From Candidatus Kapaibacterium sp. (GTDB lineage Bacteria > Bacteroidota > Ignavibacteria > Kapaibacteriales > UBA2268), in assembly GCA_963665665.1 (NCBI GenBank), contig OY762428.1:5024001-5088000 (forward strand): a DNA stretch of 64,000 nucleotides, in the 5' to 3' direction. This document shows, piece after piece, positions 45,816-57,589 of the stretch (position 1 is its first letter; every line of letters begins with the position of its first letter). Both the position numbers and the translations under genes were made by a program. The notes under the pieces were generated by a model. That model was not told where the DNA came from and did not search any database. It saw only the letters and a program-made list of their open reading frames with translations.

Positions 45816-46078
45816 TGTATTACCTCGTGTAAAAATTAGTAAAACCCGAAATTAAGGAGAATGCCGATTTCTCCGGAAAACACGAGAAAATAAACTCCGA
45901 AAATATTATTCGCAGGCAATGACCATTTTTAATTTAATGGAAAATGAATGAATCAACAAATTAATTTTTTTTAAGGATAATCAGATTACAAATAGTAGTA
46001 TAAATTTTGTATTAATATTGATAAACAAAATGTTTGTATATTTGTAACTTGATTTTATAGTAATTTAAAAGATTATTT

Positions 46079-49000
46079 ATGGCTAAAAGAGTTAAAAAAG
46101 CAAACGATACTGAAAATCGTGATACAAAGATTACCCCTGATTCAGAAAAAAATGAAGTTGATAATAAGTCAGAATCTAAAGTGAAAAGAAAACCCGGCAG
46201 GCCGAAGAAATCAACTGCTAAGAAAACAACGGAAAAACCGGCAGAAGTAAAATCGGAAGTAAAAGAGACAGCAACTCCAACGAAAGAAGTTGAAGCAAAA
46301 GTTGTGAAACCGTCTGCTGATACTAAGTCCGAACAGCCAAAGCCAGCACGCAAGCGTCCGGGAAGGCCGAAGAAAGCAACTGCTAAGAAAACAACGGCAA
46401 AACCGGCAGAAGTAAAATCGGAAGTAAAAGAGACAGCAACTCCAACGAAAGAAGTTGAAGCAAAAGCTGTGAAACCGTCTGCTGATACTAAGTCCGAACA
46501 GCCAAAGCCAACACGTAAACGTCCGGGCAGGACGAGAAAATCAACTGCAAAGAAAACAACGGGAAAACCGGCAGAAGTAAAATCGGAAGTAAAAGAGACA
46601 ACAACTCCTGCAAAAGAAGTTGAAGCAAAAGCTGTTGCTAATGCTAAACCTGATACCGCTAAAACGTCAGAAGAAATAAAAACCGTGAAGCCAAAGCCAG
46701 CACGTAAACGTCCGGGCAGGCCGAAGAAAGCTACTGCAAAGAAAACAACGGAAAAACCGGCAGAAGTAAAATCGGTAGCAAAAGAGACAACAACTCCCGC
46801 ACAAGAAGTTGAAGCAAAAGCTGTGAAACCGTCTGCTGATACTAAGTCCGAACAGCCAAAGCCAGCACGCAAGCGTCCGGGAAGGCCGAAGAAAGCAACT
46901 GCAAAGAAAACAACGGCAAAACCGGCAGAAGTAAAATCGGAAGTAAAAGAGACAACAACTCCAACGAAAGAAGTTGAAGCAAAAGCTGTGAAACCGTCTG
47001 CTGATACTAAGTCCGAACAGCCAAAGCCAGCACGCAAGCGTCCGGGCAGTCCGAGAAAGACAGTGGCAAAGAAAACAACGGCAAAGAAAACAACGGCAAA
47101 GAAAACAACGGCAAAGAAAACAACGGCAAAGAAAACAACGGCAAAACCGGCAGAAGTAAAATCGGAAGTAAAAGAGACAACAACTCCAACGAAAGAAGTT
47201 GAAGCAAAAGCTGTGAAACCGTCTGCTGATACTAAGTCCGAACAGCCAAAGCCAACACGTAAACGTCCGGGCAGGACGAGAAAATCAACTGCAAAGAAAA
47301 CAACGGGAAAACCGGCAGAAGTAAAATCGGAAGTAAAAGAGACAACAACTCCTGCACAAGAAGTTGAAGCAAAAGCTGTTGCTAATGCTAAACCTGATAC
47401 CGCTAAAACGTCAGAAGAAATAAAAACCGTGAAGCCAAAGCCAGCACGCAAGCGTCCGGGAAGGCCGAAAAGGTCAGCTGACAGGCAGCCAATATCAAAT
47501 GATAATGAATCGAAGGAAACAGTAACAGGCCTTAAAACAACTGATACTCAATCCGTTAAGACGGAGACAAAACCTGGTCAGCAGAAAACAACCCGTAAAC
47601 GTCCGGGAAGGTCGAAAAAAACTACTTCAATGAATACGGCGACAAAACCCGACGGGAAAAAAGAAACCACTAAAACTGAAATACCGGATGCTAAACCGGA
47701 AGAACAAAAAAAACAACAGCATAAACGGCACGGTGGTGGCGGACAAAGAAGATCGGCAAAGAAACCAGAAGAACAGCAAAGGGCAAATAGAAGAAATATT
47801 ACTCAGGCAATTGAAAAAGCCAAAATTGAAGATAATGATAATAATTCTCAGGTTGCTGACTCTCCGGTTAGTAAATCAAATGATAAAAAAGGGCCGGGAA
47901 GAATTGCACCGCAAAAAAATAAGAATGCACATCCCCAAAAGGATAGTAAAAGCCCAAACCAGCAACAGAAGCAAAGAAGACAGCCCGATAATCAACAATT
48001 AAGGCAAAATAAAGGACATCAGGACAAGAAAATTTCCGGGAAATACCAACAGAAATCGAAATTTCAGCAAGAAAAGCCAAACCTGGCAATGATTCAGGAG
48101 AGAAAGGAAAAAGAAAAAACACACTACCAGGAATTACTGAAGAAATTAGGATTGATTGAAAAAGATAATATCCTGATGGATAAAATTCCCAAGAAGAGTA
48201 TATTTTCGAGAAGAAGGTCCGCTCCGGTGAAAAAGGATTCAATTCTTACTAAAGAGCAAAGATCTGACCTGTTCCTTAGAATGTTTCATTCCGAAGTTGA
48301 AAAATATCTGAAGAACAAATTGTTTGTTGAACCCGGTTCCGAGATAGTCGTTGCAGTAAGCGGCGGAGTCGATTCCGTTGTTTTACTGGATACTCTTGTT
48401 GTTTTGGCAGAGAAGAATTATTACCGGCTTATTGTAGCTCATTATAATCATAATTTACGTGCTGAGGAATCCGATAAGGATGAGGAATTTGTTAAAGCCC
48501 TTGCAAAATCCTATGGGCTGACATTCCATTGTTCCCAGGGCAGGGTTAAGCAATATGCCGAGAAAAAATCTTTAAGTATTGAAGAATCCGCAAGAATATT
48601 GCGATATATGTTCCTTGAAAGGGTTGCCAGAAATGTACGTTCTACTCTCGTTGCTACTGCTCACAGCAAAGATGATTCAGCTGAAACATTTCTTATAAAT
48701 CTCCTGAGGGGTTCCGGACTGACCGGCCTGAGTGGTATTCCTTCGCAAAGAGCTCTCGGAAAAAATGTTACTCTTGTCAGGCCATTGCTGGCTATGAGTA
48801 AATCCCAGTTTAAGAAATATGCAGAAAAACGAAATCTTCAGTGGCGTGAAGATGAATCCAACGAATTTACCAATTATACCAGAAACAAAGTTCGCTTGGA
48901 CCTGATTCCTGAATTAGTCAACGAGTACAACCCAAAAATAATGGACGTGCTTAATAGAACTGCAAAACTGATCAATGGTGCAGATGAATTTATATCCGAG

Positions 49001-49666
49001 TATATCAGGAATATTCTTGACGATGTGATTGGTGAGAAAAATTCCGATCGCTTCGCTATAAAAACATCCTTATTAAATACTTTTTCCAGGTTTATACAGG
49101 GCGAAATCATACAGGCCGCTATGTTTAAGCATTTCCAGCTTCAGTCACAATCTTTGAAAACTATCGACAGAATATTGGCTTTGTGCAACAAAGCTGTTGG
49201 AAGCATTTGTGAAATATCAAGGCAAATTATTGTTCTGCGCGACAGGGAAAACCTGATATTTGTAAGGAAACCTTCTGAAGAGAAAGTAAATCAGGAAATT
49301 AATAAAACAGGATTTTACAAAACTCCTGCCTACACGATAAAACTTGAAGAAGTAAGAGAAAAAGATGTTGATTTTACATTGGCTCCACAAGTTGAGTTCT
49401 TTGACTTCGACCTTATACCCCTGAAAATGACCCTGCGTTCCTGGCAGCCGGGAGATAAATTTCAGCCTCTCGGTATGAAGGGCGAAATGAAACTTAGTGA
49501 CTTTCTAACAAACTCGAAAGTTCCTTTGATCGACAAATCAGGAATTCTTGTCCTTACAACAGGAAAAAATGACATTGTCTGGGTTTGCGGAATGAGAATA
49601 AACGATAAGTTTAAAATTTCATCAACAACCAAGAAGTATCTGAAAGTAAGTTACAACGCTACATAA
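46079..49666 (+). CDS. tilS: tRNA(Ile)-lysidine synthetase with a ~730-aa repetitive basic N-terminal extension
   Basis: AVSGGVDS, HYNHNLR, AR..RY, TAH..DD.AET.L.NL.RG.G..GL, EDESN..YTRNKVR, C-terminal RSWQPGD...IVWVCG; followed by hpt. Confidence 0.95.
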   Translation: MAKRVKKANDTENRDTKITPDSEKNEVDNKSESKVKRKPGRPKKSTAKKTTEKPAEVKSEVKETATPTKEVEAKVVKPSADTKSEQPKPARKRPGRPKKATAKKTTAKPAEVKSEVKETATPTKEVEAKAVKPSADTKSEQPKPTRKRPGRTRKSTAKKTTGKPAEVKSEVKETTTPAKEVEAKAVANAKPDTAKTSEEIKTVKPKPARKRPGRPKKATAKKTTEKPAEVKSVAKETTTPAQEVEAKAVKPSADTKSEQPKPARKRPGRPKKATAKKTTAKPAEVKSEVKETTTPTKEVEAKAVKPSADTKSEQPKPARKRPGSPRKTVAKKTTAKKTTAKKTTAKKTTAKKTTAKPAEVKSEVKETTTPTKEVEAKAVKPSADTKSEQPKPTRKRPGRTRKSTAKKTTGKPAEVKSEVKETTTPAQEVEAKAVANAKPDTAKTSEEIKTVKPKPARKRPGRPKRSADRQPISNDNESKETVTGLKTTDTQSVKTETKPGQQKTTRKRPGRSKKTTSMNTATKPDGKKETTKTEIPDAKPEEQKKQQHKRHGGGGQRRSAKKPEEQQRANRRNITQAIEKAKIEDNDNNSQVADSPVSKSNDKKGPGRIAPQKNKNAHPQKDSKSPNQQQKQRRQPDNQQLRQNKGHQDKKISGKYQQKSKFQQEKPNLAMIQERKEKEKTHYQELLKKLGLIEKDNILMDKIPKKSIFSRRRSAPVKKDSILTKEQRSDLFLRMFHSEVEKYLKNKLFVEPGSEIVVAVSGGVDSVVLLDTLVVLAEKNYYRLIVAHYNHNLRAEESDKDEEFVKALAKSYGLTFHCSQGRVKQYAEKKSLSIEESARILRYMFLERVARNVRSTLVATAHSKDDSAETFLINLLRGSGLTGLSGIPSQRALGKNVTLVRPLLAMSKSQFKKYAEKRNLQWREDESNEFTNYTRNKVRLDLIPELVNEYNPKIMDVLNRTAKLINGADEFISEYIRNILDDVIGEKNSDRFAIKTSLLNTFSRFIQGEIIQAAMFKHFQLQSQSLKTIDRILALCNKAVGSICEISRQIIVLRDRENLIFVRKPSEEKVNQEINKTGFYKTPAYTIKLEEVREKDVDFTLAPQVEFFDFDLIPLKMTLRSWQPGDKFQPLGMKGEMKLSDFLTNSKVPLIDKSGILVLTTGKNDIVWVCGMRINDKFKISSTTKKYLKVSYNAT
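46190..47470 (+). repeat. Intragenic tandem repeat: 7 units of 165/165/189/165/165/225/189 bp; nested 15-bp x5 repeat (AKKTT) at about 47066-47140
   Basis: PG(R/S) motif starts at 46193, 46358, 46523, 46712, 46877, 47042, 47267 and 47456; units are near-identical at DNA level. Confidence 0.95.
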
Positions 49667-49704
49667 ATTATGTTTAATAATTTTGAAAATAACGATTTAT
49701 ATTT

Positions 49705-50247
49705 ATGAAAGCATTCAGGATCGGCGAATATAATTTCGGCCTTTACAAATCAGCAGAGGAGTTGCATGAAATTGTAAAAGGCCTTGCAAACCGGATAAAT
49801 AATGATTATGAAGGCAGAAAGCCGGTGTTCCTTATTGTGATGAAGGGGGCTTTTATTTTTGCCGCCGACCTGATAAGGCAAATAAACCTTAACTTGTCCG
49901 TTGAATTGATCAGGGCAAAGAGCTATGGCTCGTCCATGACAAGTTCCGGGAAGGTACAGCTTCAGCATTATGGAATTGATATCAAAGGCAGGGATGTTAT
50001 AATTGTTGAGGATATTGTAGATTCAGGCCTGACAATGGAATACCTGATGGCAAAAGTTCGGGATATGGGGGCTTCCAGCGTAGAAGCTGCTGCCCTGATT
50101 TCAAAAACCGAGATGAGGAAGACTAATGTAGATGTGAAATATACAGGAATGGATATTCCGCCTTTGTTCGTTATCGGTTACGGACTTGACTACGATGAGC
50201 AGGGGAGACATCTGCCCGACCTGTATATGCTTAATGAGGAGAAATAA
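49705..50247 (+). CDS. hpt: Hypoxanthine phosphoribosyltransferase
   Basis: VMKGAFIFAADL, VIIVEDIVDSGLT, FVIGYGLDY; conserved tilS-hpt order. Confidence 0.96.
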   Translation: MKAFRIGEYNFGLYKSAEELHEIVKGLANRINNDYEGRKPVFLIVMKGAFIFAADLIRQINLNLSVELIRAKSYGSSMTSSGKVQLQHYGIDIKGRDVIIVEDIVDSGLTMEYLMAKVRDMGASSVEAAALISKTEMRKTNVDVKYTGMDIPPLFVIGYGLDYDEQGRHLPDLYMLNEEK

Positions 50248-51561
50248 TTATTTAAACTAAAGCGGAACATTTGTAGGAATATTCTTTAGCTGTTGATTAT
50301 TTCTTCGAATTATTTGAACAAAACTATCCCTTGATTAACGCTTAACCAATCCTGTTTTTGGGAATTATCCCGGAATAATGCAGAATCTCCCGTCTTTAAT
50401 TATCAAAAAATTCCCCGATATGTGCTTTCGATACTGATGCAATTGTATCTAAAAATCAAAAATATTGATATTCTGTGTTAAAGCAGCCTGACCCCGGCTG
50501 CAAAACCCTATTACCTGCCGGTGAAGCTGATATATATAATTTGGATAAAACTATAACTGATTAAAATTATTCAATTACATATTTAAATTAATATATTATC
50601 AGTAGTTATTATAATTTAATCAATCTGTTTTACCCTTGATATAGTTCATCTAACTAAATTATTTATACATCTAATAAAATTATAAATATGTTTTAATATA
50701 TTAATTATATAAATAACATATTTTACGATTCATCTTATTATTTAATTAATTCAAATTATGATTTACATAGTATATCTTTATTCTTAGATAAACTAAATAT
50801 ATTATAAATTATACTGTTAATATTCTAAATCAAATAGTTAATTTATTAATTCATATAAATAAAATTATAATATCAGAATATTAAATCATTTGATTATTCA
50901 GGAATATTCTAAAATTTGTAATTAACATGATAATTTGTAATCATAATTTTATTATTTGACTTTATAATTTTATAAGAAGGTTGTTTAAAACAATGATATA
51001 TATATTGTATTCAATATTTATACCTTAGGAATCAGTTTATATATAGTAATTGATGGAAGAATAAGCTGAACCAAAGGCTGTACGAGAAAAATTTTGAAAG
51101 AGAAGCCTAACCGTATCGATATATTTCATCAAATAAAATACTTACCCGCAAGTATAATCATGATGTCAGGGCTGATGAAAATTAATATACTCCGGTACTG
51201 AGCTTCTTTCAGGCATAAAATGATCCCTGTTTATCGGACAAATAATGATACATGGAATACAGTCGTATTATTTAAATAAATTGATTTGTTAATTATAAAA
51301 CAATTTCCTATTTTATTTCAGGTTGAATTTGATCTTACCCTGAAAAAGTCTCTTATGATTTTTGATTTTTCCTGAAAGGAACATTTGAAAACTTGTTGTT
51401 AAGAAGTTGAAATTTCATTTGTATAAAATGGAATTGCTTTGGGAAAATTGATTGGATATATGGCATTAAATGATATAAGAGAAGAATAGCATTAGAATAA
51501 ATTGACTTATGGTCAGGAAAAAATAACACGCGCTTTTGATGATTAACAAAAAGGGAAAGTC

Positions 51562-52296: not shown

Positions 52297-52412
52297 GAAT
52301 CAATAACCAGGAAATTATTTTAAACAAATCAGTGAACCATTTACGAAATGGTTTTCGGGTTGAATGTTTTTGATCAATTTTTAATTATTATTTATTGAAA
52401 ATAAGGTGTTTT

Positions 52413-55400
52413 ATGTTTAACAATCTGAATATCAGGAAAAAACTAATAGTATTTATTTTGTCAGTTACCGTTCTTGGTATAGTGGCTCTTTCAGGTTTTC
52501 TATACAATAATTCAGCAAATATGCAAACCGATTCAGCTCTTGAGCTGGGTGAATCCATTGCTGCCGAACATTCCATGGCGGTAAAAGCTTTTATGGAAAA
52601 ACCATTTGTTTCAGCAAGGGCATTGGCAGAAGTTATCAAAAAAAGGGAGACTATTGATATTTCTGACCGAAGATCTGCTTTGAATGGAATATTAAAAGGA
52701 TTTTTAGAAGATAATGAGAATTTTGTTGGTGTTTGGGTATGTATGGAACCTAATGTATTTGACGGATTGGATGACAATTATAGAAATACATCCGGTACTG
52801 ATGCCTCGGGAAGATTTATTCCCTACTGGAACCGTGGTTCTGGAAGCATTATTATTGAACCTTTGGTGGATTATGATAAACCCGGTACAGGTGATTATTA
52901 CCAGATACCACTTAAAACCGGCAAAGAAGCATTGATAGATCCATATTCTTACAATATTGGCGGAAAGGATATGCTGATAACAACAATTTCTTATCCCATC
53001 AAAGAAAACGGAAAAGTGATAGGTGTTGTAGGTATCGACCTTTCCCTGAATGTATTGCAGGAAATGGTATCGAAGATAAAACCCTACGGAACTGGTGTTG
53101 CAGCAATATTCAGTAATGCCGGAATTGTTACGGCTCATTTCGATCCTTCAAGGCTCGGGAAGAATATGAGTGAAACAGAACGCAATATGAGCGGCGATAG
53201 AACAGACAGCCTGGTGGCTGCTATAAAAGCAGGGAATAAATATTCTTATCAAGTGTATTCTCCGCAAATGGAAACCGATATTTATATTGTTACTGAACCC
53301 ATGGAGATAGGTAATACAAAAACTCCCTGGGGTTTTGCTGTTGGCATACCTATGAATAAAGTTCTTGAACCTGTAAGAACATTGCTTAATTTTACGATAG
53401 TAATTGGAATAGTTGTTCTGGCGGCAATGTTCATTGCAATTTTCTGGATTTCCGGCAAAATTTCCAAACCGGTAATTGAATGCATGGAAGCAGCCGATAA
53501 GATTGCTTCAGGGGAAATTAATATTAAGCTTGATTCAGAATCAAATGATGAAACCGGCAAACTTATGAAATCAATGAAAAAAATGTCCGGAAGTATCGCA
53601 AATATCATTAATGACCTGAATAATTTGGCAAATGATTGCAGTAACGGTAAACTGGACAGAAGGGTGGATGCTGATGATTTTGAAGGAGAGTATGCTGTAC
53701 TTGCCGGAAATGTAAATAATATTGTTGATAGTATTGTTGCTCCGTTGAACGTTACTGCCGAATACGTTGACAGAATCAGCAAGGGTGATATTCCTTCGAA
53801 AATTGAAGATGAATACAAAGGAGATTTCAATGAGATCAAGAATAATATAAACCTTCTGATTGATACACTGAATACCTTTATATCGGAAATGAAGAAAATG
53901 TCTGAGCAGCAGAGTATGGGAGATATAGAATACAATATTGATTCATCAAAATTTGCCGGAGTATATAATACCATGTCAGACGGCTTCAACGATACTGTAA
54001 ATGAAATAAACGGGGCAATTCTGATGATTCTGAATACGATAAAAAAATATTCCGAGGGAGATTTTTCCGAACAAATGGAAAAAATGGCAGGTAAGCGGGT
54101 TGTGGCCAATGAAATGATTGATGAGCTGCGTGATAACCTTGTTAATGTTAATTCTGAAATTCATAAACTTATCAACGCCACTGAAAAAGGCGATCTGAGA
54201 GTAAGGGCAGATGTCTCGGGGTTCAGGGGTTCTTATCAGGATATGGTTTCAGGTTTGAATAAAACTCTTGATCTTGTATTGAATCCTATTGCCGAAGCAG
54301 TTAAAACCCTACAGCAAATGGCAGAAGGCAACCTTTCAGTGGAAATGACCGGTGATTTTAAAGGCGATCATGCTATTCTGAAAAATTCTATCAACGAAAC
54401 GATTCGACTTATGCCTTTCCGGCAGGCTATAAATACTCTTGAAACAATAGCCGACGGCAATTTATCCGAATATATGGATGGCGATTTTAAGGGAGACAGT
54501 TTACGGCTGAAACAAGCTTTGAATAAAACTATCGATTCAATGAACGAAATTATGTCCCAGGTAGTGGTAACGGTAGATGAAGTTAACCGTGGGGCTGTTC
54601 AGGTTTCAGATGCCAGTACATCTCTTTCGCAAGGTGCAACCGAACAGGCGGCAAGCCTTGAAGAAATAACCAGTTCAATGTCCGAAATAGGCGGACAGAC
54701 AAGGCTTAATGCAGAAAATGCCAATATGGCCAAAACACTAACTGATGAATCCCGCGATTCCGCTGAAAAAGGAAATTCAGAGATGGAGAACCTGAATATG
54801 GCAATGAGCGAAATATCGGAATCAAGCTCGAATATTTCAAAAATTATAAAAGTTATTGACGAGATTGCATTCCAGACTAACCTGCTGGCATTAAATGCTG
54901 CCGTTGAAGCAGCAAGGGCGGGCCGACACGGAAAAGGTTTTGCCGTGGTAGCAGAGGAAGTTCGTAACCTTGCCGCACGTAGTGCCACTGCTGCCAAGGA
55001 AACTGCCGAACTGATCGAAGGCAGTATCAAAGTTGTTGAAAATGGTTCTATGCTTGCTATCAGAACCTCTGAAGTATTGAAGGAAATAACAAATTCATCA
55101 ATTAAATCAGCTGATATCGTTGGTGAAATCGCAACATTATCCAATGAGCAGGCTCAGGCTATTGCTCAGATAAACGAAGGCCTTACACAAATCGATAAAG
55201 TTACACAAACCAATACTGCAAGCGCCGAGCAAAGTGCGTCGGCAAGTGAGGAGCTTTCAGGCCAGGCCAATAATCTTAAGAGTATGATTTCCAGGTTTAC
55301 TTTAAAAGCCGGTGATTATTCCGTTGAAGATAATATTTCGAAAACAAACATATTGAATTCCGGCAGGTATAGTAAGCAGTTGCCCGAATCATTAGATGAT

Positions 55401-55463
55401 GAGATTATTGAGAATCCGGATGACATTATCAAACTGGATGATGAAGATTTCGGAAAGTATTGA
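52413..55463 (+). CDS. Methyl-accepting chemotaxis protein (dCache sensor, poly-HAMP)
   Basis: Two TM helices, RFIPYW...YYQIP...DPY dCache, repeated HAMP units, [20 protein letters not shown]. Confidence 0.96.
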
Positions 55464-55618: not shown

Positions 55619-57589
55619 TTGGAAGCTGTGAATATTTATTTTAAGAAATCGAAGGAAATTGTAAAATCTGTCATCATTTTGATTTTACTGCTTGTATTTG
55701 CAGGCCAATCATTTTCAAATACTATCGACAGCCTGAAAAACCAACTAAGCCACGCAAAAAATGATACTAATAAAGTTAACTTATTAAACAGGCTGGCTTT
55801 TTCAACAATGGTTTCCGATTTTGATAAGAGTATAGAATATGCAAATATTGCAAGCAGGCTTTCTGACTCATTGAATTTTAAAAGAGGGAAGGCTCTTGCT
55901 TTGAAATATATGGGGACAGGTAAATGGAACCAGGGAAATTATGCTGAAGCTAAGGATATGTTCTATCAAAGCCTGAAAATTTATGAGAGCCTGAATGATA
56001 TTGACGGACTTTCCAGATTGTGGAATAATATCGGGCTGATCAATATCACGCAGGATGAATACCTGACAGCCAGTGATAATTTCAACAAAAGCATTGAATT
56101 AAGTAAAAAAATCAATAACAATTTTATGCTCGGAACAGCAAAACTCAATCTCGGTATTAATCATCATTATTTAAAAAATTACGACAGCTCGAATTACTAT
56201 CTGAAAAAAAGCATTATTTATGCAAAAAAAATTAATGACAACAACCTGATTGCAACTGACCTGTCATTTATCGGGATAAACGAAACTCTGCTAAGAAATT
56301 TTGATTCCGCTAAATCATGTCTTGATCGTGCTTTAGAAATATTTGTTAGCCTGAACAATATTCGCGAACAGGTACGTACAAAAATTGCTATTGCAAAATA
56401 TTATTCTGCCACTGGTGATTTTTCCGGCTCGATAAATATTGCTAAGGATGCCCTGCAACATGCAAAGAAATTAAATTCAAAATTCAATATTTTCGAAGCA
56501 AGTTTTCATTTAAGTGAGACTTACAAAAAATTGAAAGATTATAAGAAAGCCTACAAATTCCTGGCTTTGTCAAAGAAATATGGCGATACTCTGCACAGTG
56601 AAGAAAGTAAGCGAAATATTGCCAACCTTACTGCCGAATACAATTACGAAAAGAAATTAAGAAAAATTGAGATTGAAAAAGAACGGGAAAAGCAACATAT
56701 TGACAGGGAATTGAGACAAAGGAACTATATTATTCTGATAATTAGTATCAGTTTGTTTTTAACTATAATATTTTCAATTATTCTATATAGAATTAACCTA
56801 AGCAGAAAATTGAAAAATAAAATCCTGGTTAATCAGAATATAGAGATTGAAAAAAATCACAAGATGCTTGAAGAAATGAATAATGACCTGAACTTGCTAA
56901 ATGCTACTAAGGATAAATTCTTTTCAATTATCGCTCATGATCTTAGGAATCCTATTGGTGGGCTGAATTCAATCACTCAGTTAATGTCGTCAGAATTCAA
57001 AGATATGAACGATGACGAGAAATTGGAATTTATTGAATTGATGAACGAATCAACAACTCATGTAAGCTCATTACTTGAAAATTTACTGACCTGGTCACGG
57101 TCGCAAAGAAATACAATTGATTTTAATCCTGTACCGGCTAATTTAAAACAAGTTGTCGAGCCGACTATTCAGGGGGTTAAGTTATCTGCTGCAAATAAAA
57201 ATATTGATTTAAGTTACGATTTGGATGACAAATATGAGGTCTTTGCAGATGCAAATATGCTTACAACAATTGTAAGGAATATTTTGAATAATGCAGTAAA
57301 ATTTACCCCGATGAACGGATCTATTAAAGTTGAAGCAACAGAAAATGGAAACAATATTGATATTTCAATAAAAGATTCAGGTGTAGGAATACCCGAAGAT
57401 AAAATTGACATCCTATTCGATATCGGTACAAACGTAACAACTCCGGGTACTGAAAATGAAAAAGGAACCGGTCTTGGGCTGATAATATGCAAGGAATTTG
57501 CTGAAAAGAACGGCGGGGATATTGAAGTTAAAAGTGAAAAGGGAAATGGCTCGGAATTTATTATTAGTATACCGAAATCAGATAAATAG
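55619..57589 (+). CDS. TPR-containing membrane sensor histidine kinase
   Basis: Periplasmic TPRs, TM helix, FSIIAHDLRNP H-box, RNILNNAVKFT, DSGVG, GTGLGL. Confidence 0.94.
   Translation: MEAVNIYFKKSKEIVKSVIILILLLVFAGQSFSNTIDSLKNQLSHAKNDTNKVNLLNRLAFSTMVSDFDKSIEYANIASRLSDSLNFKRGKALALKYMGTGKWNQGNYAEAKDMFYQSLKIYESLNDIDGLSRLWNNIGLINITQDEYLTASDNFNKSIELSKKINNNFMLGTAKLNLGINHHYLKNYDSSNYYLKKSIIYAKKINDNNLIATDLSFIGINETLLRNFDSAKSCLDRALEIFVSLNNIREQVRTKIAIAKYYSATGDFSGSINIAKDALQHAKKLNSKFNIFEASFHLSETYKKLKDYKKAYKFLALSKKYGDTLHSEESKRNIANLTAEYNYEKKLRKIEIEKEREKQHIDRELRQRNYIILIISISLFLTIIFSIILYRINLSRKLKNKILVNQNIEIEKNHKMLEEMNNDLNLLNATKDKFFSIIAHDLRNPIGGLNSITQLMSSEFKDMNDDEKLEFIELMNESTTHVSSLLENLLTWSRSQRNTIDFNPVPANLKQVVEPTIQGVKLSAANKNIDLSYDLDDKYEVFADANMLTTIVRNILNNAVKFTPMNGSIKVEATENGNNIDISIKDSGVGIPEDKIDILFDIGTNVTTPGTENEKGTGLGLIICKEFAEKNGGDIEVKSEKGNGSEFIISIPKSDK

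What the first reader, a model, noticed from the sequence alone, without database searches (positions are those of the whole stretch)
46079..49666. TilS fused to a ~730-aa histone-H1-like, AT-hook-like repeat extension
Seen: one uninterrupted 1195-aa ORF. The N-terminal part is K/A/T/E/P-rich with nine (K/R)PG(R/S) motifs (five are PGRPK), followed by a Q/K/N-rich tract; the TilS core starts near aa 735. Known: TilS is normally about 320-460 aa; AT-hooks have a GRP core flanked by K/R; the disordered insertion of Bacteroides Rho drives phase separation. Inference: an essential tRNA-modifying enzyme tethered to the nucleoid or to RNA condensates.
Basis: partly seen in the sequence, partly recalled or inferred. 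Interest (0 to 1): 0.74.

Follow-up and report, generated by a model that had tools for sequence, protein, structure and literature searches.

The report
TilS with a giant basic tail
The only gene in this genome for the enzyme that lets bacteria read the AUA codon carries a roughly 700-residue floppy, positively charged front end, a little-noticed trait shared in ever-changing form by many relatives.

Summary
Window 46079..49666 (+) is one stop-free 1195-aa ORF. Residues ~735-1195 are a complete type-I TilS: PP-loop domain 8.6e-53, TilS_C 7e-8, TIGR02432 at 193.5 bits against a 93.6 cut-off, and PDB 3a2k at 4.7e-41. Residues 1-667 are predicted disordered (AlphaFold2 pLDDT <50, no secondary structure). 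They are polycationic (pI 10.3, net +101). They hold nine [KR]PG[RS] motifs in recently expanded 55-75-aa tandem units.

This protein is not a one-off. 21 of 39 relatives in the same order, and 142 database proteins of 657 aa or more (source labels Kapabacteria/Ignavibacteria), have long, non-homologous, mostly net-positive extensions. 24 outgroup TilS genes have only 23-61 aa before the PP-loop, median 25. 16 of the 21 long relatives have no ATG near the canonical start, and a conserved motif lies upstream of Met735. The extension is therefore translated.

Best reading, by inference: a disordered polycationic nucleic-acid-binding tail that concentrates TilS on RNA or the nucleoid. The AT-hook-like motifs are specific to this lineage. 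Verdict: new variant of a known kind, moderate interest. I found no paper on it.

The parts
46079..49666 (+). Whole gene: 1195-aa TilS with N-terminal extension (stop codon included)
   Evidence: the only TilS match in the 5.46-Mb genome
45816..46078 (.). AT-rich (25-30% GC) intergenic region between the divergent T9SS-tail surface-protein gene and the tilS start; presumed promoter region
   Evidence: the sigma-70-type consensus hits are weak and not evidence of function
46079..48079 (+). Disordered polycationic extension, aa 1-667 (pI 10.3, K+R 185, D+E 84, 2 aromatic residues)
   Evidence: AlphaFold2 pLDDT <50 with no secondary structure; composition; 0 in-frame stops against 33 and 74 in the other frames
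46190..47452 (+). Seven tandem units of 55-75 aa (aa 38-458), each opening with an (R/K)PG(R/S) AT-hook-like motif; higher-order copies are 91-93% identical
   Evidence: TRF periods 165, 354 and 225 nt; unit listing; motif positions
47065..47145 (+). 15-nt microrepeat, 5.4 copies, 100% identical, encoding AKKTT repeats inside unit U6
   Evidence: the same AKKTT-type repeat occurs in the tail of a DksA/TraR-type protein elsewhere in the genome
47453..48079 (+). Non-repetitive T/K/Q/N-rich part of the extension (aa 459-667), holding the last two hook-like motifs (aa 459, 508)
   Evidence: a second study's contig carries 3 nonsynonymous changes here, plus 1 synonymous change at codon 729 just downstream of this part, and no indel
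48083..48145 (+). Predicted lone helix, aa 669-689 (pLDDT ~72); not conserved in relatives
48212..48280 (+). Junction segment, aa 712-734 (..ILTKEQRSDLFLR), matching the clade motif LLTxxQ(R/K)xDPFFxNF directly upstream of the canonical TilS start
   Evidence: junction alignment of 40 loci and junction strings of 120 long proteins; short helices at aa 719-721 and 725-729, where pLDDT rises from ~63 to ~87
48281..48283 (+). In-frame ATG (Met735) at the position of the canonical TilS start; possible but unproven secondary start
   Evidence: the aligned residue is not Met in the relatives
48344..48895 (+). TilS N-terminal PP-loop ATP-pyrophosphatase domain (aa 756-939), with SGGVDS at aa 761-766 (48359-48376)
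   Evidence: PF01171 8.6e-53; TIGR02432 193.5 bits against a 93.6 cut-off; invariant S761 G762 G763 D765 S766 in 36 sequences
49430..49633 (+). TilS C-terminal substrate-binding domain (aa 1118-1185)
   Evidence: PF11734 7e-8; TIGR02433 7.1e-8; PDB 3a2k aligned to aa 1192
49705..50247 (+). Downstream phosphoribosyltransferase (hpt-like) gene, 38 nt after the tilS stop
   Evidence: PF00156 1.7e-24

Best explanation
The gene encodes one polypeptide, translated from the ATG at 46079. A ~667-aa intrinsically disordered, strongly polycationic N-terminal tail is joined through a short clade-conserved junction motif to a complete, catalytically intact type-I tRNA(Ile)-lysidine synthetase. This is the cell's only TilS. 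The tail most likely acts in cis as a non-specific polyanion binder (RNA, tRNA, possibly DNA) that raises the enzyme's local concentration on nucleic acid. That would help it capture its rare substrate, tRNA-Ile2(CAU), before MetRS can mischarge it. The working model is the lysine-rich appended tails of eukaryotic aminoacyl-tRNA synthetases. The nine AT-hook-like RKRPGRPKK motifs are this lineage's own version of a property that the clade conserves only as composition: disordered, hydrophilic, net positive. The sequence itself turns over quickly through tandem-repeat expansion. Shown: the ORF, the domains, predicted disorder, charge, clade distribution, and comparative evidence that the extension is translated. 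Inferred: nucleic-acid binding and any kinetic or localisation benefit.
For: One open frame: 0 stops against 33 and 74 in the other frames, and shuffles never gave fewer than 18. Complete TilS core, folded with pLDDT >85 from aa ~725. It is the only TilS match in the genome. The genome has three tRNA-CAU genes, two Ile-GAU and no Ile-UAU, so AUA decoding should need lysidine. Disorder: pLDDT <50 and no secondary structure for aa 1-667. Charge: K+R 185 against D+E 84, pI 10.3, only 2 aromatic residues. It is by far the largest basic low-complexity segment in the genome: 680 residues flagged, next largest 250 in IF-2. Clade trait: 21 of 39 relatives have more than 150 aa before the PP-loop, up to 924. 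In 19 of 22 long forms the first ATG lies within 20 codons of the upstream stop. 16 of 21 long relatives have no ATG, and 6 of 21 no ATG/GTG/TTG, between -70 and -20 codons from the PP-loop. 142 proteins of 657 aa or more match the core at E<=1e-20. Of the 120 listed (this protein included), the median extension is 401 aa and 114 are net positive. Outgroup control: 24 loci have 23-61 aa before the PP-loop, median 25. A conserved junction motif lies upstream of Met735 and Met735 itself is not conserved. Independent contigs cross 47440-49700 without indels. Precedent: lysine-rich extensions of aaRSs are reported as important for tRNA binding (PMC8319005, Discussion passage read). Unmodified tRNA-Ile(CAU) is charged by MetRS (PMC11301382, Table 4 passage read).
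Against: There is no direct evidence of nucleic-acid binding, expression or translation start, and no RNA run holds the locus. Extensions of relatives share no sequence. A few are near-neutral polyampholytes: R/D/E-rich, net +9 to +13 over 549-580 aa in L014 and L023. 5 of 120 are net negative and 1 is neutral. So 'polycation' is a tendency, not a rule. The long state needs at least 4, and most parsimoniously 9, changes on a quick tree, and 9 family members are truly short, so the tail is dispensable in close kin. Differences between repeat units are spread over all codon positions: 24 synonymous against 33 nonsynonymous codon differences across 7 unit pairs. The second strain shows 3 nonsynonymous changes against 1 synonymous in the extension and none in the core. 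Both point to weak sequence constraint. The repeat module has no relatives: only 4 weak low-complexity hits in 1.84 billion representatives. This genome does have ATGs at the canonical position (Met735) and at Met700, so a short isoform could carry the essential activity.
Confidence: 0.45

Rival explanations
1. Nucleoid tether: the regularly spaced AT-hook-like motifs and the H1-like K/A/T/P tracts bind AT-rich DNA and hold TilS on the chromosome.
For: Nine (R/K)PG(R/S) motifs spaced 49-75 aa apart, five with a GRP core flanked by K/R. The AT-hook is defined as a GRP core flanked by basic residues (PMC4615771, abstract seen). The genome is 38.6% GC. One relative (L026, G003) independently carries six RRGRPPK motifs. 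The best weak hit of the extension is a protein with repeated RRRPGRPRG motifs.
Against: The residue before Gly is Pro, not Arg, so there is no RGR. I recall that RGR is the part of HMGA hooks that contacts the minor groove; I did not check this. 4 of 9 copies have lost GRP, and the motif is no better conserved than the rest of the unit. No Pfam family, AT_hook included, matches at E<=1. Only 7 of 120 long TilS proteins have 2 or more such motifs. AT-hooks also bind RNA (PMC4615771, abstract seen), so the motif does not point specifically to DNA.
Confidence: 0.15
2. Largely neutral low-complexity expansion: replication slippage keeps generating in-frame repeats at a permissive N-terminus. The tail is tolerated, not used, at most acting as a solubility or entropic spacer.
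For: Hypervariable, non-homologous extensions ranging from 28 to 924 aa (first ATG to PP-loop) among genera. Multiple gains or losses on the tree. Very recent repeats: 91-100% identity. Orphan sequence. Weak synonymous excess among units and between strains. Short forms occur in the same family.
Against: Frames of several hundred codons, up to ~900, are kept open in more than 100 lineages, with the ATG just after the upstream stop. Canonical-position start codons are missing in most long forms, so a stop in the tail would be lethal, which is a cost a neutral tail would have to bear. Net charge is positive in 114 of 120. Nothing comparable occurs in 24 outgroup TilS genes. It is the largest basic IDR in this proteome.
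Confidence: 0.25
3. Internal initiation: the functional enzyme starts at Met735 (or Met700), and the upstream 734 codons are untranslated, or form a separate or alternative product.
For: An ATG lies at the canonical TilS start: codon 735, which is -26 from the PP-loop serine, while short relatives start at -25 to -37. A second ATG is at codon 700.
Against: There is no stop between the start and Met735, and the frame is open far beyond chance. Met735 aligns with non-Met residues in relatives, and a conserved peptide motif lies upstream of it. 16 of 21 long relatives have no ATG there. Base composition in the 150 nt before Met735 is coding-like (37-38% GC), against 25-30% GC upstream of 46079.
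Confidence: 0.07
4. Condensate scaffold: like the disordered insertion of Bacteroides thetaiotaomicron Rho, the tail drives regulated phase separation that changes enzyme activity.
For: A long IDR on an essential RNA-handling enzyme in the same phylum. BtRho condensates raise its activity (PMC13269538 and PMC10284900, abstracts seen in the listing).
Against: Net charge per residue is +0.15 and there are only 2 aromatic residues in 667. By general polymer physics (inference), such a chain should repel itself and could only coacervate with a polyanion. That case merges with the best explanation. There is no sequence similarity to any Rho insertion.
Confidence: 0.08

Closest known systems
Canonical type-I TilS (Geobacillus kaustophilus TilS-tRNA complex, PDB 3a2k; E. 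coli MesJ/TilS, PDB 1ni5)
   Same: PP-loop N-terminal domain plus C-terminal domains. Aa 743-1192 align with residues 8-459 of 3a2k at E 4.7e-41. TIGR02432 and TIGR02433 score above their cut-offs.
   Different: Carries ~734 extra N-terminal residues (61% of the protein), including a clade-specific junction motif. Outgroup TilS genes have 23-61 aa before the PP-loop, median 25.
Long TilS proteins of Kapabacteria/Ignavibacteria metagenome-assembled genomes, deposited as 'tRNA lysidine(34) synthetase TilS', 657-1442 aa
   Same: Same architecture, same junction motif, 40-53% core identity. This protein is one of them.
   Different: The extension sequence is unique. It has the highest net charge of the 120 compared (+108, next +77). 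Among those 120, one other (P0007) matches its count of hook-like motifs, 6 by the narrower pattern used. I found no publication describing any of them.
Lysine-rich appended N-terminal extensions of eukaryotic aminoacyl-tRNA synthetases
   Same: A basic, flexible tail attached in cis to a tRNA-handling enzyme, reported as important for tRNA binding (PMC8319005, Discussion passage).
   Different: Those tails are tens of residues long, on synthetases, in eukaryotes. This one is ~700 residues, repetitive, bacterial and on a modification enzyme. There is no homology.
Disordered insertion of Bacteroides thetaiotaomicron Rho
   Same: A lineage-specific IDR on an essential RNA-handling enzyme in Bacteroidota (abstracts seen).
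   Different: That region is an internal insertion with shown phase separation. Here the region is an N-terminal polycation with almost no aromatic residues, and nothing has been shown.
AT-hook and extended AT-hook motifs (HMGA-type)
   Same: GRP core flanked by K/R in 5 of 9 motifs. The definition and the RNA binding of AT-hooks come from PMC4615771 (abstract seen).
   Different: PGRP in place of RGRP. 4 of 9 cores are degenerate. No profile match.
[quoted passage not shown]
   Same: A long, basic, disordered N-terminal extension on a conserved bacterial housekeeping protein (PMC13277299, start of abstract seen in the listing).
   Different: A different protein, phylum and proposed role (chromosome segregation). 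That extension is described as conserved, whereas this one is hypervariable.

Membership tests
TilS (tRNA(Ile)-lysidine synthetase) | PP-loop ATP-binding motif SGGxDS in an N-type ATP-pyrophosphatase domain | tested here: met
   SGGVDS at aa 761-766, invariant in 36 aligned sequences; PF01171 8.6e-53
TilS (tRNA(Ile)-lysidine synthetase) | Score above the curated cut-off of the TilS-specific N-domain model | tested here: met
   TIGR02432 at 193.5 bits against a 93.6 cut-off. The full-length E. coli-type model NF007942 scores 131 against a 606 cut-off, which is not met, as expected for a distant phylum.
TilS (tRNA(Ile)-lysidine synthetase) | C-terminal tRNA-binding domain of type-I TilS | tested here: met
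   PF11734 at 32.2 bits against 22; TIGR02433 at 31.8 against 20.2; alignment to 3a2k through residue 459 of 464
TilS (tRNA(Ile)-lysidine synthetase) | The genome needs it: a candidate tRNA-Ile2(CAU) is present and there is no tRNA-Ile(UAU) | tested here: inconclusive
   ARAGORN finds 3 CAU tRNAs, 2 Ile-GAU and no UAU. Which CAU tRNA is Ile2 was not determined.
TilS (tRNA(Ile)-lysidine synthetase) | Lysidine-forming activity on C34 | not testable with these tools
   Needs an enzyme assay or complementation.
AT-hook | GRP tripeptide core flanked by basic residues | tested here: inconclusive
   5 of 9 motifs read (R/K)PGRPK(K/R); 4 of 9 read GRT, GSP or GRS
AT-hook | Arg before the Gly (an RGR core). 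This feature is recalled, not checked in a paper here. | tested here: not met
   All nine have Pro before Gly
AT-hook | Match to the curated profile (Pfam AT_hook) | tested here: not met
   0 families at E<=1 for aa 1-730. The model is very short, so this is a weak test.
AT-hook | Minor-groove binding to AT-rich DNA | not testable with these tools
   Needs EMSA or footprinting.
Histone H1 / bacterial Hc1-Hc2-like nucleoid proteins | Match to linker-histone or HC1/HC2 profiles | tested here: not met
   No Pfam match for the extension at E<=1. The resemblance is in composition only. A different protein of this genome (L076) gives HC2 at 1.5e-4, below the cut-off.
Phase-separating IDR (Rho-type) | Condensate formation that depends on the IDR | not testable with these tools
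   Only composition is available: net charge per residue +0.15, fraction of charged residues 0.40, 2 aromatic residues in 667

The most novel reading that the evidence does not exclude
In the Kapabacteria/Ignavibacteria group, TilS has acquired a fast-evolving polycationic disordered tail that recruits the enzyme to the site of tRNA synthesis, either nucleoid-associated nascent RNA or RNA-driven coacervates. Lysidine would then be installed on precursor tRNA-Ile2 before MetRS can see it. This would be a spatial fidelity mechanism for the genetic code, not known for any bacterial tRNA-modifying enzyme. That TilS acts on precursor tRNA is recalled from the 2009 TilS-tRNA structure paper and was not checked here.
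Probability: 0.12. Interest if true: 0.75.

Novelty: new variant of a known kind. Interest (0 to 1): 0.5.

Why it matters
TilS is essential in most bacteria and defines the AUA/AUG boundary of the genetic code. It has been treated as a compact enzyme of 320-460 aa. Here a whole bacterial clade attaches hundreds of disordered, mostly basic residues to it: 61% of this protein, and the largest basic IDR in its proteome. The reading frame stays open while the sequence changes freely. That makes it a clean natural system for asking what long IDRs do on bacterial housekeeping enzymes, with many independent sequence 'solutions' and short-form controls in the same family. If the tail improves capture of a rare tRNA, or places the enzyme on the nucleoid, it would extend the logic of eukaryotic aaRS appended domains, and possibly condensate biology, to bacterial tRNA modification. 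If it proves neutral, it is a notable example of tolerated repeat expansion in an essential gene.

Tried and rejected
Homology of the extension: a word-based search of aa 1-730 among proteins of 657-2092 aa found only the protein itself. An exhaustive phmmer of aa 1-524 against 1.84 billion representatives gave 4 weak low-complexity hits, E 3e-6 to 6e-4. The ESM Atlas gave no usable hit. Pfam gave 0 families at E<=1. A PDB hit of aa 264-372 to the low-complexity region of a SigA chain (8dy7_F, 1.1e-5) was set aside as compositional.

Gene-fusion origin: in 9 truly short-form relatives the upstream gene is an ordinary protein, in most a same-strand gene whose C-terminus looks like a T9SS sorting tail (judged by eye, not tested), and not a histone-like gene. 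Fusion with a conserved neighbour was rejected. L007 and L029, and probably L015, are 'short' only because of masked N stretches or a contig end.

Antisense ORF 46012..47451 (-), 479 aa: a hydrophobic low-complexity mirror image of the purine-rich repeats. Not pursued as a gene. The nine terminator-like hairpins on the minus strand between 46272 and 47366 are one repeat-borne hairpin counted in each unit.

Promoter scan: the sigma-70 consensus hits (14 against 8.0 +/- 2.8 in shuffles) do not discriminate between the two possible starts, and the promoter type of this phylum may not be covered.

Expression: no RNA holder is listed for the locus, so nothing can be said about transcription.

Repeat copy number: short-read contigs do not span 46250-47440, so it is not independently verified.

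Selection on repeats: the counts are too small to be decisive.

The careful tree did not finish in time, so only the quick tree is reported.

Literature: searches for TilS with 'N-terminal extension' and 'disordered', 'lysidine synthetase' with 'low complexity', and 'lysidine' with 'TilS' and 'intrinsically disordered' found no paper on extended TilS.

Full report
OBSERVATION. Window 46079..49666 (+) is a single ATG-initiated ORF of 1195 codons. Across the first 730 codons the reading frame has no stop. The other two forward frames have 33 and 74 stops. 2000 shuffles of the same bases gave a mean of 37 and never fewer than 18 in that frame. The region is purine-rich and T-poor (A 45%, T 13%), with clear three-base periodicity in composition. 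Tandem Repeats Finder reports periods of 165, 354, 225 and 15 nt, all multiples of three.

The nine [KR]PG[RS] motifs sit at aa 38, 93, 148, 211, 266, 321, 396, 459 and 508, and five of them read PGRPK. A composition shuffle expects 0.08 such motifs. The motifs are copies within seven tandem units of 55-75 aa and so are not independent events.

THE ENZYME PART. These results define the core:
- Pfam finds the PP-loop domain at aa 756-939 (8.6e-53) and TilS_C at aa 1118-1185 (7e-8).
- NCBIfam's TilS N-domain equivalog scores 193.5 bits against a 93.6 cut-off.
- The best solved relative is the Geobacillus TilS-tRNA complex 3a2k (4.7e-41). Query aa 743-1192 align with chain residues 8-459, so the canonical protein would begin at about aa 736.
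- SGGVDS and about 30 other residues are invariant in 36 aligned clade members.
- AlphaFold2, run on that alignment, folds aa ~725-1195 with block pLDDT of 81-96, mostly above 85.

This is the only TilS match in the 5.46-Mb single-contig genome. The genome has three CAU tRNAs, two Ile-GAU and no Ile-UAU, so the gene should be needed. A phosphoribosyltransferase (hpt-like) gene follows 38 nt downstream. A T9SS-sorted surface-protein gene lies divergently upstream, across a 263-nt region of 25-30% GC.

THE EXTENSION. AlphaFold2 gives pLDDT <50 and no secondary structure for aa 1-667. A lone helix follows at aa 669-689 (pLDDT ~72), then a short low-confidence linker, then the core. Residues 1-667 hold 185 K+R against 84 D+E, with pI 10.3, net charge per residue +0.15 and only two aromatic residues.

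A scan of all 4996 ORFs of 120 aa or more in the genome flags 680 residues of this protein as basic and low-hydrophobicity. The next largest is 250 residues, in IF-2. Further down the list are a DksA/TraR-type protein with an AKKTT-repeat tail and a TP_methylase-domain protein with an R/D/G-rich tail.

The extension has no relatives:
- only the protein itself in a word-based search;
- four weak low-complexity hits in an exhaustive phmmer against 1.84 billion representatives;
- no Pfam family at E<=1;
- nothing usable in the ESM Atlas.

IT IS A CLADE TRAIT. TilS was found in 41 of 41 genomes, the window's own plus 40 relatives of its family and order. I could evaluate 39 relatives. In 21 of them the distance from the first ATG to the PP-loop exceeds 150 aa and reaches 924 aa. 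Long forms occur in 7 of the 11 families of the order in that sample (f1, f3, f6, f7, f8, f9, f11). An eighth, f10, has open frames of 883-1206 aa in the class sample.

The extensions are all low-complexity but unrelated to each other: K/A/E/P-rich, Q/S/K-rich, N-rich or R/D/E-rich. One relative (L026) independently carries six RRGRPPK motifs.

A database search restricted to proteins of 657-2092 aa found 142 TilS proteins at E<=1e-20. Source names, where given, are 'Candidatus Kapabacteria', 'Kapaibacterium' or 'Ignavibacteria', and in two cases 'Bacteroidota' and 'Patescibacteria group'. This places the window's organism in that part of Bacteroidota. Among the 120 listed (this protein included), the median extension is 401 aa and 114 are net positive. 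Only 7 have two or more hook-like motifs. This protein has the highest net charge, +108 against +77 for the next.

As a control, 24 of the 33 loci fetched from other lineages (mostly other Bacteroidota, plus a few Bacillota, Verrucomicrobiota and others) could be evaluated. They have 23-61 aa before the PP-loop, median 25. In the class-wide sample of 301 genomes, most families outside the window's order have open frames of about 450-550 aa. The exceptions are mainly one family, f14, with frames of up to 1000 aa.

A quick maximum-likelihood tree of the cores needs 9 changes of the long/short state, at least 4 of them forced by well-supported branches. All long forms fall inside one 36-row group that excludes families f2 and f5. 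Three of the 'short' rows are artefacts of masked bases or contig ends.

IS THE EXTENSION TRANSLATED? Comparative evidence says yes.
- In 19 of 22 long forms the first ATG lies within 20 codons of the upstream in-frame stop. Of the 22, 8 begin MAK, 4 MP(K/R) and 3 MK(K/E).
- 16 of 21 long relatives have no ATG, and 6 of 21 have no ATG, GTG or TTG, between 70 and 20 codons upstream of the PP-loop serine. Their only possible start is the distant one.
- A conserved peptide motif, roughly LLTxxQ(R/K)xDPFFxNF, lies just upstream of the canonical start in long forms, and also in some short forms such as L018 (clear) and L019 (looser). In the window protein it reads ILTKEQRSDLFLR, at aa 720-733, just before Met735.
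- Met735 aligns with non-Met residues in the relatives.

Sequencing data agree. Contigs from runs of two studies cover 47440-49700 with no insertion or deletion. The second study's contig differs by four substitutions: V482L, A521V, I535K and a synonymous change at codon 729. All four are in the extension, none is in the core and none makes a stop. The repeat block is covered only by pieces of 62-126 nt, most of them identical (one X5 contig carries T>C at 46590, V171A), so copy number is unverified.

This genome does have ATGs at codons 700 and 735. An additional short isoform cannot be excluded, and no RNA data exist for the locus.

HOW IT MOST LIKELY WORKS. Shown so far: an intact, sole-copy TilS is preceded by a translated, disordered, polycationic tail, and the clade preserves the presence and general character of that tail but not its sequence.

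Inferred: such a chain binds polyanions. On a tRNA enzyme the nearest functional precedent is the lysine-rich appended tails of aminoacyl-tRNA synthetases, reported as important for tRNA binding (PMC8319005, Discussion passage read). TilS works on a rare tRNA that MetRS will mischarge while it is unmodified (PMC11301382, Table 4 passage read). A tail that raises encounter rates with RNA, or keeps the enzyme where tRNA is made, could therefore pay for itself.

The AT-hook-like motifs fit the published definition, a GRP core flanked by basic residues, and AT-hooks can bind RNA as well as DNA (PMC4615771, abstract seen). But here they read PGRP and not RGRP, four of nine cores are degenerate, and the motif is rare among relatives. 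I therefore rank specific nucleoid tethering below generic polyanion binding.

Self-driven phase separation of the BtRho kind (abstracts seen) is unlikely for a chain this charged and this poor in aromatic residues. Coacervation with RNA remains possible and would be a special case of the main reading.

The strongest rival is that the tail is a tolerated product of repeat slippage. Several results speak for that: its turnover, repeated losses, orphan status, and the weak synonymous excess (24 synonymous against 33 nonsynonymous codon differences among units; 1 against 3 between strains). Several speak against it: the long-term maintenance of frames several hundred codons long, up to ~900, with no fallback start codon, the charge bias, and the absence of anything similar in the outgroup TilS genes examined.

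COMPARISON AND NOVELTY. The core is a member of the TilS family; the defining features I could test are met. The extension is not a member of any curated family. 'AT-hook-like' and 'H1-like' describe its composition and are not family assignments.

Long TilS proteins from this clade are already in public databases under the plain name TilS. Three literature searches found no paper that describes or studies the extension. Supplements were closed. I file it as a new variant of a known kind: a canonical enzyme with a lineage-specific IDR. Precedents for bacterial housekeeping IDRs are Rho and mycobacterial FtsK (PMC13277299, abstract start seen).

VERDICT. Interest is moderate (0.5). The feature is real, large, clade-wide and experimentally tractable, but its function is only inferred and a near-neutral origin remains a serious rival.

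Noticed in passing
Genomes G044, G067, G057, G114, G141 (families f15 and f26 of the same class); no window coordinates: In the class-wide sample the TilS core query found nothing in family f15 (0 of 15) or f26 (0 of 23). A TIGR02432 family search in five of these 99-100% complete genomes gave 0 of 5 over the cut-off, best 23 bits against 93.6. These may be TilS-less lineages that decode AUA another way.
   Followed up: partly
Own genome G000:C1:1124397-1125164 (-), locus L076: A DksA/TraR-type zinc-finger protein (zf-dskA_traR 7e-7) with a ~130-aa N-terminal AKKTT/AKKST-repeat tail, the same pentapeptide flavour as the TilS microrepeat. Pfam HC2 scores 1.5e-4, below its cut-off.
   Followed up: partly
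Own genome G000:C1:2204845-2206017 (+), locus L075: A TP_methylase-domain protein, which I take to be RsmI-like (not tested), with a ~140-aa C-terminal R/D/G/K-rich low-complexity tail. This would be a second RNA-modifying enzyme with a basic tail.
   Followed up: partly
Own genome, e.g. G000:C1:4357809-4358654, 2870686-2871114, 3269488-3269904, 3994216-3994695, 461449-461823, 4735987-4736352, 235930-236295, 3968012-3968389: At least eight dispersed loci whose longest ORFs read as 'ARGNARKARGNARKA...' or 'TKAKMTRTNVKTAHPNAK' repeats. This is probably a dispersed short-period DNA repeat element and not a set of genes.
   Followed up: no
window 50500-51100: An extremely AT-rich stretch (GC 12-18% in 300-nt windows) between the hpt-like gene and a DUF6733 gene.
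   Followed up: no
window 46272-47366, minus strand: Each repeat unit carries the same 7-8-bp hairpin followed by a T-rich run on the minus strand. The terminator scan scores it nine times. It is probably a by-product of the repeat.
   Followed up: no
Class sample, family f14 (e.g. G104, G122, G131, G149, G219): A family in a different order of the same class also has TilS open frames of 803-1000 aa, while its sister genera have ~480 aa. This may be an independent or shared origin of the extension.
   Followed up: no
window 52395-55463 and 55619-57589: A methyl-accepting chemotaxis protein with a dCache domain and multiple HAMP domains, followed by a TPR-containing histidine kinase. This is ordinary context.
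   Followed up: no
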